This document shows positions 14,470 through 15,238 of a stretch of 38,089 bases of DNA, in pieces (the stretch's first letter is position 1; each line of letters opens with the position of its first letter). The DNA is from a virus. Its lineage: Duplodnaviria; Heunggongvirae; Uroviricota; Caudoviricetes. The position numbers and the translations under genes are program-made. The stretch is from IMG/VR virus record IMGVR_UViG_2917886563_000005. The stretch is one strand, 5' to 3'. The notes beneath the pieces were generated by a model. The model had not been told where the DNA came from, made no database searches, and worked only from the letters and a program-made list of their open reading frames with translations.

Positions 14470-14969
14470 TATTCGCTCCCGTTATCGCAAGGTTCCTTTC
14501 GGTGGAAGTAATTCCAACCGTTCCACTTCGCCAACTGGTTTCCACTGCCAACAGGCATACGGTTTGGATAACCGGACTTACATTTTGCGGCTTTTGCTCT
14601 GTCCATTGCAGACAGTTTGACGAGTCGCTCTTTCCCGTATCTGGCAGTGGTTATAAGTTTTGCAGACGCTTCCAGCGCATAATCCGGAGCAATGCGGCAG
14701 GCAAGGTTGAAAATGACGGCATTGATAGCGTTATTTGATAAACCGTGTTCATCGCCAGGATCTGGAGCGACATCTGCATCAGCGAAAATGTAGCCAACGT
14801 TGATACCTGGTGACGCATCACCGCCAAGCCATTCAGCCATCATCATTTCAAGGTCGTTGACGCCGTCTTCCATAGACTGCGGTTCGACATCGGTTAACGT
14901 GGCATTTGATGCGACACCGAGCTTACGTAATGCTGCAAGGACTAAATCACCCTTCGTTGTCAGGTTCAT
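14469..14969 (-). CDS. Tail accessory protein (P22 gp4-like), 166 aa; start at internal ATG 14969 rather than the 197-aa ORF start
   Basis: From [21 protein letters not shown]... the protein aligns with recalled P22 gp4 (166 aa). Confidence 0.75.
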
Positions 14970-15201
14970 CTGCTGCCGCCTTAGGTTTTCGACCAGGCTT
15001 TTTACGCTGTTTTTCTTCTGGCTCTGGCTCTGGCTCTGGCTCTGGCTCTGGCTCTGCAACATCCTTCAAAAGGTCATCAGGATGTGAAAACCAACCAGCA
15101 TCCAGATATTCCTGAAGCTCTTCGGCTTTCACGATTTCAAAGTCGTAGCCAACGCCTTTCCACTTCTTCATGTCGCCATGACGAAAGATCATGTGTGTCA
15201 T
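14947..15201 (-). CDS. Small 84-aa protein with (EP)6 linker and Lys-rich tail, inserted between coat and gp4; function unknown
   Basis: ATG at 15201 preceded by GGAGA at 5-nt spacing; follows the coat terminator hairpin; overlaps gp4 start by 23 nt. Confidence 0.5.
15018..15056. repeat. Hexanucleotide tandem repeat (CTGGCT) x 6.5, in-frame within coding sequence
   Basis: ctggct repeated directly; encodes [12 protein letters not shown] on the minus strand. Confidence 0.95.
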
Positions 15202-15213
15202 GCTTGTCTCCAG

Positions 15214-15238
15214 ATAAAAAAGGGAGCCGAAGCTCCCT
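15214..15238 (-). terminator. Intrinsic terminator 8 nt downstream of the coat gene
   Basis: Minus strand reads gggagc-uucg-gcuccc followed by uuuuuu. Confidence 0.6.

What the first reader, a model, noticed from the sequence alone, without database searches (positions are those of the whole stretch)
14947..15238. Extra small gene with an in-frame hexanucleotide microsatellite between coat and gp4
P22 has no gene between coat and gp4 as far as I recall. Here a terminator hairpin follows the coat gene, then a good RBS drives an 84-aa ORF whose C-terminal part is (EP)6 followed by a Lys-rich tail. The (CTGGCT)x6.5 repeat is prone to slipped-strand changes, and because the unit is 6 nt they would alter linker length rather than shift frame. 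The same repeat would read as (SQ)6 in an upstream extension of gp4 if that alternative start were used.
Basis: seen in the sequence. Interest (0 to 1): 0.55.

Follow-up and report, generated by a model that had tools for sequence, protein, structure and literature searches.

The report
P22 orf69-type gene with variable repeat
The small gene between the coat and gp4 genes is real, but it is the long-known, non-essential P22 "orf69" gene of unknown function, here carrying a six-base repeat that lengthens or shortens an acidic Glu-Pro spacer (1 to 33 units in nature) without breaking the reading frame.

Summary
On the minus strand there is a terminator hairpin after the coat gene, a GGAG ribosome-binding site, an 84-codon ORF (15201→14947) and a perfect 40-nt hexanucleotide array (15017-15056) that encodes (EP)6.

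One premise is wrong: the gene is not "extra". It belongs to the same family as P22 orf69 (phrog_1175) and is related to epsilon34 gene 6 / phage L orf186. These all sit between coat and gene 4, and the P22 gene is reported as non-essential.

The ORF is a real gene: dN/dS is 0.02-0.15 and its position is kept across six genera. The protein has three parts:
- a folded N-terminal hairpin-plus-helix module;
- a variable middle, which is nothing in P22, (E-X)n here, or a WDGH domain in other alleles;
- a basic KKPGRKPK tail whose last codons contain gp4's Shine-Dalgarno and start codon.

The array varies from 1 to 33 units among E. coli prophages and is always in frame. Loci with identical flanks can differ (13 versus 9 units), which points to replication slippage in a spacer that tolerates any length.

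One new lead: the N-module resembles a repeat found in the non-catalytic regions of GIY-YIG and HNH homing endonucleases. Function remains unknown; nucleic-acid binding is only inferred. The (SQ)n extension of gp4 is rejected. Interest is modest.

The parts
15246..16541 (-). Coat protein gene (P22 gp5 family), the upstream neighbour
   Evidence: PF11651 E 2.8e-166, phrog_283/22632; ORF list
15219..15240 (-). Intrinsic terminator-like hairpin after the coat gene (stem AGAGGGAGC / GCUCCCUUU, UUCG loop), followed by a U tract at about 15213-15218
   Evidence: Terminator scan. RNA fold gives -21.1 kcal/mol, z -3.55. The equivalent feature is annotated in P22 as a stem_loop and in Sf6 as 't coat'. 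The U tract varies by 1 nt between strains (L050).
15208..15211 (-). Shine-Dalgarno GGAG, 6 nt upstream of the ATG of the small gene
   Evidence: Read directly from the sequence
14947..15201 (-). Small gene, 84 codons plus stop; same family as P22 orf69 (phrog_1175)
   Evidence: phrog_1175 E 5.7e-37, and P22 orf69 hits the same PHROG at 4.5e-31. dN/dS is 0.02-0.15. It lies between coat and gp4 in all relatives examined.
15061..15201 (-). N-terminal module, residues 1-47: beta-hairpin, helix and a short helix, with invariant G9, G16, G36-W37 and H40-P41
   Evidence: AlphaFold2 gives strands 2-8 and 19-25 and helices 26-34 and 42-47. Alignments A1/A2. hhalign against the homing-endonuclease repeat profile gives prob 95.8%, E 6.8e-9 over residues 17-39.
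15017..15056 (-). Perfect hexanucleotide array, (GAGCCA)6.7 on the coding strand and TCTGGC on the plus strand, encoding (EP)6 (residues 50-61, nt 15019-15054)
   Evidence: TRF score 80, 100% matches. Beyond chance. Copy number is 1-33 in relatives.
14950..15018 (-). C-terminal tail [23 protein letters not shown]: a basic Pro/Gly-rich patch followed by an acidic end, predicted disordered
   Evidence: The tail is conserved in P22 (KPRKGRKPKAVSDADKD) and epsilon34 (KERKKPGPKPKAESDADKD). pLDDT is below 50 for residues 57-84.
14976..14982 (-). Shine-Dalgarno of gp4 (AAGGCGG), embedded in the K-A-A codons (residues 74-76, within the KPKAA stretch) of the small gene
   Evidence: The TAAGGCGG context 8-10 nt before the gp4 ATG is conserved in P22, epsilon34, Sf6 and six other genera
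14469..14969 (-). gp4 head-completion / head-tail adaptor gene (166 aa); its first 23 nt overlap the end of the small gene
   Evidence: PF11650 E 1.1e-58, phrog_637; start MNLTTKGD is conserved

Best explanation
This is the E. coli-lineage allele of the conserved small gene that all P22-type phages examined carry between the coat gene and gene 4. In P22 it is orf69; in epsilon34 it is gene 6; in phage L it is orf186.

Shown here:
- It is a translated-type gene under strong purifying selection, placed just after the coat terminator with its own Shine-Dalgarno.
- The protein has three parts. The first is a ~47-residue folded N-terminal module (beta-hairpin plus helix). The second is a variable middle. 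The third is a conserved basic tail (KKPGRKPK) whose last ~12 codons also carry gp4's Shine-Dalgarno and start codon.
- In this lineage the middle is an acidic (Glu-Pro)n spacer encoded by a pure GAGCCA microsatellite.
- The array gains and loses whole 6-nt units, so the frame and tail are always kept.

Inferred:
- The length changes arise by replication slippage.
- Spacer length is essentially unconstrained. Natural alleles range from 1 to 33 units, and the same site even accepts a ~100-residue WDGH domain.
- The protein is an accessory, non-essential late protein. It probably binds nucleic acid through an N-module related to a repeat in the non-catalytic (presumed DNA-binding) regions of GIY-YIG/HNH homing endonucleases, and through its basic AT-hook-like tail. 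It would act during head completion or DNA packaging, in the position that gene FI occupies in lambda.

The identity, architecture and repeat dynamics are well supported. The biochemical function is a guess.
For: Family membership:
- phrog_1175 matches the window protein at E 5.7e-37 and P22 orf69 at 4.5e-31.
- Alignment with P22 orf69 and epsilon34 gp6 shows shared N-module and tail.

Synteny:
- The order coat - small gene - gp4 holds in P22, epsilon34, E. coli, Citrobacter, Kluyvera, Yersinia, Buttiauxella and a metagenomic relative.

Coding:
- dN/dS is 0.02-0.15 over the first 45 codons, with dS around 1 or more.

Structure:
- AF2 predicts a hairpin, a helix and a disordered remainder.

Repeat dynamics:
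- IMG/VR loci carry 1-13 units, all in frame.
- L019 has 13 units while L023 and L030 have 9, with 0 differences in 1016 nt of flanks.
- An even sample of E. coli genomes has 1-18 units, with a maximum of 33.
- Arrays of seven or more units are pure GAGCCA, or pure GAGCCT in Yersinia, as slippage-driven homogenisation predicts.
- Length differences of +/-1 nt map to the terminator U tract, not to the ORF.

Tolerance of the middle:
- The E. coli WDGH-domain form carries the same (EP)3 and tail.
- P22 has no repeat.

Homing-endonuclease link:
- phmmer of the N-module against 1.84 billion proteins finds 4-6 stretches per protein in GIY-YIG/HNH proteins, with E 3.5e-7 to 9e-4.
- hhalign of the two profiles gives prob 95.8%, E 6.8e-9.
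- Those endonucleases hit phrog_1175 in return at 1e-7 to 1e-10.

Non-essentiality and unknown role:
- PMC2629481 (citing Eppler 1991) and PMC8022706 (orf186, 'detailed function unknown').
Against: - There is no evidence of translation or of the protein in virions; none could be obtained with these tools.
- The functional inference is weak. The homing-endonuclease module is itself uncharacterised: it has no Pfam or NCBIfam model and no PDB relative. DNA binding is therefore inferred only from its position in those proteins.
- The similarity covers only 23 columns.
- The tail is not a canonical AT-hook: it reads G-R-K-P rather than R-G-R-P. Only one distant homologue, P0133, has RGRP.
- Part of the tail's conservation is explained by the embedded gp4 translation-initiation region.
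- The EP tract is retained in lineages whose flanks are saturated at synonymous sites. That could mean the spacer is selected rather than neutral.
Confidence: 0.72

Rival explanations
1. Adaptive 'molecular ruler'. The EP array is a contingency-type locus whose length is selected. Changing the reach between the N-module and the basic tail would tune the protein's activity, for example for different hosts or capsid and DNA contexts. The microsatellite would be maintained because rapid, reversible length change is useful.
For: An E-P tract of seven to eight pure units is kept in four of six species-representative loci (Kluyvera, Yersinia, Buttiauxella, Citrobacter), and a shorter one in Citrobacter wls619, even though their flanks have dS of 1 or more. 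Yersinia uses a different codon, GAGCCT. Copy number changes faster than flank point mutations. (EP)n runs are stiff, extended spacers in TonB and procyclins (my own knowledge, not tested here).
Against: The distribution in E. coli is broad and flat, 1 to 18 units with a tail to 33, with no preferred length. P22 has no repeat at all. The same site accepts a 100-residue domain. The P22 gene is dispensable (PMC2629481). Strains sequenced twice show identical copy numbers (E. coli W, DH5alpha-labelled and AHM8C assemblies), so there is no hypermutation on short time scales.
Confidence: 0.13
2. Translational-coupling leader. The ORF exists mainly to bring ribosomes to the gp4 start, which lies inside it. 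The peptide product would be incidental, and the repeat would sit in a part of the leader whose length does not matter.
For: gp4's Shine-Dalgarno and ATG lie within the last 12 codons. The overlap is -23 or -17 nt in most lineages, and this context is conserved even in Sf6, whose gene 6 is not detectably homologous.
Against: The N-module is under strong purifying selection at the amino-acid level (dN/dS 0.02-0.15) and recurs in unrelated proteins. In Citrobacter and Kluyvera the ORF stops 3 nt before the gp4 ATG, so there is no overlap. The RNA around the gp4 start is not unusually structured (z 0.55), so coupling is not obviously required. gp4 has its own good Shine-Dalgarno.
Confidence: 0.1
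3. The repeat belongs to an N-terminally extended gp4 that starts at ATG 15062 and reads MLQ(SQ)6...
For: The frame is open from 15062 to the gp4 start. It is also open in Yersinia proxima (reading (LS)n there) and one Citrobacter locus.
Against: A stop codon closes that frame one codon before the gp4 ATG in P22, L042, L043, L045 and L047. The PF11650 profile begins at the internal Met, and the 166-aa length matches the gp4 lengths of relatives. The conserved Shine-Dalgarno precedes the internal ATG. The upstream ATG has AAGG directly adjacent, with no spacing. Any frame of (GAGCCA)n is free of stops on both strands, so the open frame is a by-product of the repeat.
Confidence: 0.02
4. Non-coding spacer with a microsatellite; the ORF is a chance open frame.
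For: Some records leave it unannotated, for example IME10. The exact 84-aa sequence is absent from the protein collection.
Against: dN/dS is far below 1. The PHROG family has 72 profile positions. The start, Shine-Dalgarno, N-module and tail are conserved across genera. All copy-number variants are in frame with the same C-terminus.
Confidence: 0.02

Closest known systems
Phage P22 orf69 (BK000583 6135-6344), 69 aa, 'unknown, putative'
   Same: Same PHROG (phrog_1175). Same position between coat and gene 4, after a stem-loop. Same N-module (Y.pG....W.G....kV....EL.EY..DGW..HP) and the same basic tail (KGRKPKA..D), which overlaps the gene 4 start.
   Different: P22 has only a short non-repetitive linker (PVEADDV) where the window has the (GAGCCA)n array. 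Identity is about 35% in the N-module.
Epsilon34 gene 6 / phage L and ST64T orf186 (phrog_3769), 186 aa
   Same: Same position, N-module and KKPGPKPKA tail. The literature already notes that homologues differ greatly in length through internal deletions and that the role is unknown (PMC2629481, PMC8022706).
   Different: It carries a ~100-residue WDGH domain (PF25311, E 1.7e-40) between the N-module and tail, and has no tandem repeat. About 18% of an even sample of E. coli loci have this longer form. The one examined still carries (EP)3 after the domain.
Sf6 gene 6 / HK620 hkbT (phrog_3251)
   Same: Same slot after the 't coat' terminator, overlapping the gp4 homologue. Small (61 aa), with a KRGRK...D tail that spans the same TAAGGCGG Shine-Dalgarno.
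   Different: No detectable homology (hhalign prob 0.4%). It belongs to a different PHROG.
Repeat module in the non-catalytic regions of GIY-YIG and HNH homing endonucleases (K.IK.EELQ.YLDDGW..G), interspersed with NUMOD3 motifs
   Same: Significant profile-profile and sequence similarity to residues 17-39 of the N-module, which cover strand 2 and the helix.
   Different: The window protein has one copy, a longer hairpin loop and no nuclease domain. The module itself is uncharacterised: it has no Pfam or NCBIfam model and no solved structure.
Lambda gpFI (DNA-packaging chaperone)
   Same: Positional analogue: a small, dispensable-type late gene between the major capsid gene (with a stem-loop after it) and the head-tail adaptor gene. 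It is a two-part protein joined by a flexible acidic linker.
TonB (EP)n-(KP)n spacer and trypanosome procyclin EP repeats
   Same: An acidic Glu-Pro dipeptide run followed by Lys/Pro-rich sequence. Weak compositional hits only: TonB NF008084 at 12.6 bits and Trypan_PARP at 16.9 bits.
   Different: Both scores are far below the curated cut-offs (315 and 100 bits). The resemblance is compositional, not homology.

Membership tests
P22 orf69 family (phrog_1175) | Significant match to the family profile over its full length | tested here: met
   E 5.7e-37, residues 1-82 against profile positions 1-72 of 72; P22 orf69 itself scores 4.5e-31
P22 orf69 family (phrog_1175) | Location between the coat gene (after its stem-loop) and gene 4, ending at or overlapping the gene 4 start | tested here: met
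   Window; P22; epsilon34; other genera
P22 orf69 family (phrog_1175) | Dispensable for plaque formation (reported for P22) | not testable with these tools
   Literature only: PMC2629481, citing Eppler et al. 1991
AT-hook DNA-binding motif | Core R-G-R-P flanked by basic residues | tested here: not met
   The window tail is KKPGRKPK, with G-R-K-P. P22 has KGRKPK and epsilon34 has PGPKPK. Only the distant homologue P0133 has KRRGRPPK. It is AT-hook-like at best.
Homing endonuclease (GIY-YIG / HNH) | Nuclease catalytic domain | tested here: not met
   No Pfam nuclease domain in the 84-aa protein. Only one copy of the repeat module is shared.
Homing-endonuclease repeat module | Sequence-profile similarity to the repeated K.IK.EELQ.YLDDGW..G unit | tested here: met
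   hhalign prob 95.8%, E 6.8e-9, 23 columns; phmmer multi-stretch hits; reciprocal phrog_1175 hits
Homing-endonuclease repeat module | Binds DNA | not testable with these tools
   Inferred only from its position next to NUMOD3 motifs, C-terminal to the nuclease domains. No characterised or solved example was found.
Phase-variable contingency locus (simple-sequence-repeat ON/OFF switch) | Repeat unit not a multiple of 3 nt, or located in a promoter, so that slippage switches expression | tested here: not met
   The unit is 6 nt and lies inside the ORF. All 32 IMG/VR alleles and the E. coli alleles read stay in frame.
Polymorphic in-frame coding microsatellite (VNTR) | Copy number differs between otherwise near-identical loci, in whole units | tested here: met
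   13 versus 9 units with 0 differences in 1016 flank nt. Lengths run 371 to 563 nt in steps of 6 across E. coli genomes.
Rho-independent terminator | GC-rich stem-loop followed by a U tract | tested here: met
   9-bp stem, UUCG loop, U6; z -3.55. Termination activity itself was not tested.
Lambda gpFI family | Sequence or fold similarity to the gpFI C-terminal domain | tested here: not met
TonB / procyclin EP-repeat proteins | Score above the curated family cut-off | tested here: not met
   TonB NF008084 scores 12.6 bits against a cut-off of 315. Trypan_PARP scores 16.9 bits against a cut-off of 100.

The most novel reading that the evidence does not exclude
The N-terminal module would define a previously unrecognised, widespread nucleic-acid-binding mini-domain. 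It would be shared between the modular DNA-binding arrays of GIY-YIG/HNH homing endonucleases and many small orphan phage proteins. The orf69-family protein would then be a lambda-FI-like packaging or head-completion helper that tethers DNA, through the N-module and basic tail, across a stiff Glu-Pro rod. The length of that rod would be an evolvable ruler, rapidly reset by slippage.
Probability: 0.1. Interest if true: 0.6.

Novelty: new variant of a known kind. Interest (0 to 1): 0.3.

Why it matters
It is the 35-year-old orphan of the P22 head gene cluster.

Three things are added here:
- The family has a fixed N-module and tail around a free middle. That middle can be empty, a slippery (E-X)n array of 1-33 units, or a WDGH domain.
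- The tail is doubly coded with the gp4 translation start.
- The N-module is related to an undescribed repeat of homing endonucleases. This gives the first testable hint, nucleic-acid binding, for a conserved gene of unknown function in one of the best-studied phages.

On the practical side, the array is a clean 6-nt VNTR present in about 4% of complete E. coli genomes, which could be useful for typing P22-like prophages. The locus is also mis-annotated or left unannotated in several records.

Tried and rejected
2. PDB sequence and profile searches with the family profile and the endonuclease-repeat profile gave nothing below E 0.68.
3. Pfam and NCBIfam scans of the small protein gave only compositional hits to Trypan_PARP and TonB, far below cut-off.
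4. Homology of Sf6 gp6 to the family was not detectable (hhalign prob 0.4%).
5. RNA structure that might sequester the gp4 start, as evidence for obligatory translational coupling, was not found (z 0.55).
6. A search for a characterised homing endonuclease containing the repeat module (tblastn against phages) found only seven uncharacterised hits.
7. Literature searches found no experimental work on function. I searched for 'orf69' with P22, 'WDGH domain' and the APC_JM3.2 genome announcement. Casjens & Thuman-Commike 2011 and Eppler 1991 are not held.
8. The search for related loci with the wide alignment A2 failed for lack of a conserved stretch. The run with A3 succeeded.
9. The longer GTG-started version (15249, 100 aa) was rejected. 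It runs through the terminator and the coat stop, and all homologues align from MTHM/MTQM.
10. The plus-strand ORFs through the repeat (WLWL..., GSGS...) were rejected as by-products of a repeat that has no stop codon in any frame.
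Full report
**What is in the sequence**

All genes of this region lie on the minus strand. The window is a P22-like (Lederbergvirus-type) E. coli phage or prophage, about 95% identical over long stretches to IME10, APC_JM3.2 and HZ41.

- The coat gene is 15246-16541 (PF11651, E 2.8e-166).
- Directly after its stop there is a terminator-like hairpin at 15240-15219. The stem is AGAGGGAGC/GCUCCCUUU with a UUCG loop and a U tract. It folds at -21.1 kcal/mol, z -3.55, and none of 200 shuffles folds as well.
- GGAG at 15211-15208 sits 6 nt before the ATG at 15201.
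- The 84-codon ORF ends with TGA at 14947-14949.
- gp4 (166 aa, PF11650 E 1.1e-58) starts at 14969, so the two genes overlap by 23 nt.
- Tandem Repeats Finder reports 15017-15056, period 6, 6.7 copies, 100% matches.
- A 40-nt perfect period-6 run is far beyond chance. The longest run in 200 Markov simulations was 20 nt, and the longest elsewhere in the window is 17 nt.

**It is not an extra gene**

The P22 record BK000583 annotates orf69 (69 aa, "unknown, putative") at 6135-6344, between gene 5 and gene 4. It is preceded by a stem_loop annotated as [quoted passage not shown].

Its product is MKIAIYKPGGSIMVWGVMAQMKVIDSSELPEYVKDGWLDHPSKLLPVEADDVKPRKGRKPKAVSDADKD. It aligns with the window protein at both ends. 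Both fall in phrog_1175, at E 5.7e-37 for the window protein and 4.5e-31 for orf69.

Epsilon34 gene 6 (186 aa) has the same N-terminus and the same KKPGPKPKA tail, but carries a WDGH domain (PF25311, E 1.7e-40) in between.

The epsilon34 genome paper already says three things. The homologues of gene 6 differ markedly in length. The P22 version has an internal deletion. [quoted passage not shown] 1991 (PMC2629481). The phage L paper still lists orf186 as "detailed function unknown" (PMC8022706).

Sf6 has a gene 6 in the same slot after a terminator annotated "t coat". Its product is not detectably homologous (hhalign prob 0.4%; phrog_3251).

**It is a real gene**

I compared the window, a diverged IMG/VR relative (L012) and loci from Citrobacter, Kluyvera, Yersinia proxima, Buttiauxella and an unnamed Enterobacteriaceae genome. 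Over the first 45 codons dN/dS is 0.02-0.15, while dS is about 1 or more. In every case the gene lies between a P22-type coat gene and a gp4 homologue.

An exhaustive phmmer search of the N-terminal 49 residues against 1.84 billion representatives found only a small family of such proteins, about 11 of the 22 representatives returned. The family members whose source organism is named, or whose locus was read, come from Enterobacterales.

**Architecture**

AlphaFold2, run on a shallow alignment (mean pLDDT 64.5), predicts strands 2-8 and 19-25, a helix at 26-34 and a short helix at 42-47. Everything from residue 57 onward has pLDDT below 50.

The protein is therefore a ~47-residue folded module, a spacer and a basic tail.

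The last 12 codons are doubly coding. gp4's Shine-Dalgarno AAGGCGG (14976-14982) lies in the K-A-A codons (residues 74-76, within KPKAA), and the codons for DEPDNEG* overlap gp4's MNLTTKGD. The same TAAGGCGG...ATG context is kept in P22, epsilon34, Sf6 and six other genera.

This explains part of the tail's conservation and weakens any functional reading of its last ten residues. In Citrobacter and Kluyvera the ORF ends ...KPKG* and gp4 starts 3 nt later, so the acidic end is dispensable. The basic patch RKKPG(R/P)KP is what remains protein-specific.

**The repeat**

- In 32 complete IMG/VR loci found with a flank pattern, the array has 1-13 units. Every allele keeps the frame and the same tail.
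- L019 (13 units) and L023/L030 (9 units) have no difference in 1016 nt of flanking sequence. L028, with 7 flank differences, has 2 units.
- The locus is present in 217 of 5426 complete E. coli genomes.
- In an evenly spaced sample of 60 records, 47 short-form loci span 1-18 units with no preferred length.
- The longest alleles seen are (EP)33 in strain 98195, giving a 138-aa protein, and (EP)24 in GPEC1446.
- The few match lengths that are not multiples of 6 differ by +/-1 nt. In the one example read (L050, GPEC1446), this is a one-base difference in the terminator's T tract, not a frameshift in the ORF.
- Arrays of seven or more units are pure GAGCCA. Shorter ones show interruptions (GATCCA, AAGCCA), and protein clusters show E-S, E-T, E-Q and E-L variants.
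- Yersinia proxima has eight pure GAGCCT units.

This is the pattern expected of replication slippage with homogenisation.

Assemblies of the same strain, or near-identical assemblies, agree in copy number (E. coli W, two DH5alpha-labelled assemblies, the AHM8C isolates). The array is therefore not hypermutable on laboratory time scales.

About 18% of the even sample (11 of 60) have a ~340-nt longer locus. The one examined encodes N-module + WDGH domain + (EP)3 + the same tail.

The flat length distribution, the repeat-free P22 allele and the domain-sized insertion at the same site argue that spacer length is largely unconstrained. On the other side, an E-P tract persists in lineages that are saturated at synonymous sites. 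That leaves some room for selection for an acidic, proline-rich spacer.

**A lead on function**

Beyond the family itself, the phmmer search hit proteins of 196-478 residues. In each of these, 4-6 separate stretches match residues ~12-46.

- These proteins carry GIY-YIG or HNH domains and NUMOD3 motifs.
- The matching stretches form a tandemly repeated unit, roughly h-W-I-N-x-G-x-x-x-K-x-I-K-x-E-E-L-Q-x-Y-L-D-D-G-W-x-x-G.
- A profile of 31 such repeats aligns to the family profile with hhalign probability 95.8%, E 6.8e-9, over 23 columns covering strand 2 and the helix.
- The endonucleases hit phrog_1175 in return at 1e-7 to 1e-10.
- The unit has no Pfam or NCBIfam model and no solved relative. 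No characterised endonuclease with it was found.

In characterised homing endonucleases the region outside the nuclease domain is a string of small DNA-binding modules. That is established knowledge for I-TevI and I-HmuI, stated from memory. By position, then, the unit is probably a DNA-binding module, but this is inference.

The tail is AT-hook-like (G-R-K-P rather than R-G-R-P). One distant homologue has a canonical KRRGRPPK.

Together these features suggest a small nucleic-acid-binding accessory protein. Its slot lies after the capsid gene's stem-loop and before the head-tail adaptor, which is where lambda carries FI, a dispensable packaging chaperone. No sequence or fold similarity to FI was found.

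I give this functional reading roughly 30%. The identity, architecture and slippage dynamics are far better supported.

**Rejected readings**

The (SQ)6 extension of gp4 exists only because (GAGCCA)n has no stop codon in any frame on either strand. In P22 and in four of six other genera a stop lies one codon before the gp4 ATG. The conserved Shine-Dalgarno serves the internal ATG.

The non-coding-spacer reading is excluded by the dN/dS values and by conservation across genera.

A pure coupling-leader role is unlikely, given amino-acid-level selection on the N-module and the lack of RNA structure around the gp4 start. Some coupling to gp4 remains plausible.

**Verdict**

The feature is real and was correctly described. 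The gene, however, is the known P22 orf69-type orphan rather than a novelty.

What is new is modest:
- an in-frame 6-nt VNTR that makes the spacer 1-33 Glu-Pro units long;
- the cassette-like middle of the family;
- the double coding with the gp4 start;
- the link to an undescribed homing-endonuclease repeat.

Interest is about 0.3.

Noticed in passing
window 14969-14987 (minus strand): gp4's Shine-Dalgarno (AAGGCGG) and ATG lie inside the last 12 codons of the small gene. The same TAAGGCGG...ATG context is conserved in P22, epsilon34, Sf6 and six other genera. The '...KPKA..D' end of the small protein is therefore doubly constrained.
   Followed up: yes
L049 (NZ_CP178707.1 1405635-1406979), locus positions 396-998: About 18% of an even sample of E. 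coli loci carry a WDGH domain (PF25311) between the N-module and the (EP)3 tail. PGAP starts this CDS at an internal Met (597) and so drops the in-frame N-module. The WDGH domain alone is widespread as a separate protein in Listeria, Bacillus, Streptococcus and Klebsiella phages.
   Followed up: partly
P0129, P0131, P0132, P0134-P0136, P0138, P0140-P0142: GIY-YIG and HNH homing endonucleases carry 4-6 tandem copies of a ~35-residue unit (K.IK.EELQ.YLDDGW..G), interspersed with NUMOD3 motifs. The unit has no Pfam or NCBIfam model and no solved structure. Several small PHROGs of unknown function (21831, 29145, 13679, 14660, 17207, 14884) also match it.
   Followed up: partly
L001 (MG197996.1, APC_JM3.2) and IME10 records: There are annotation problems in public records. 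APC_JM3.2 labels the gp4 homologue 'recombinase RmuC' and marks the EP array as a repeat_region. The IME10 records leave the small gene unannotated. One JGI call (P0145) starts the protein at the upstream GTG inside the terminator.
   Followed up: no
E. coli records CP026085.1 and CM135829.1: Two assemblies labelled DH5alpha carry this P22-like prophage locus at 98.8% identity, as does E. coli W. This is unexpected for a K-12 derivative and suggests a mislabelled or lysogenised strain.
   Followed up: no
NZ_CP081786.1, 39,448-bp record of E. coli 0H26 (H175): The locus also occurs on a separate phage-sized record in one assembly. The phage genome may have been assembled there as an extrachromosomal circle.
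   Followed up: no
L050 positions 180-186, versus window 15213-15218: The U/T tract of the coat terminator varies by one base between strains (5 versus 6 T). In this example that accounts for the +/-1 nt length oddity seen in a few BLAST matches.
   Followed up: yes
window 30098-30137 and 11762-11803: Tandem Repeats Finder reports other, imperfect tandem repeats: period 14/7 with 2.6-4 copies, and period 21 with 2 copies. They were not examined.
   Followed up: no
P0121, P0122, P0143: Rare aberrant alleles exist in the protein collections. Two frameshifted versions read out of frame after the N-module. One has an internal duplication of '[13 protein letters not shown]'. These could be pseudogenes or assembly errors.
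   Followed up: no
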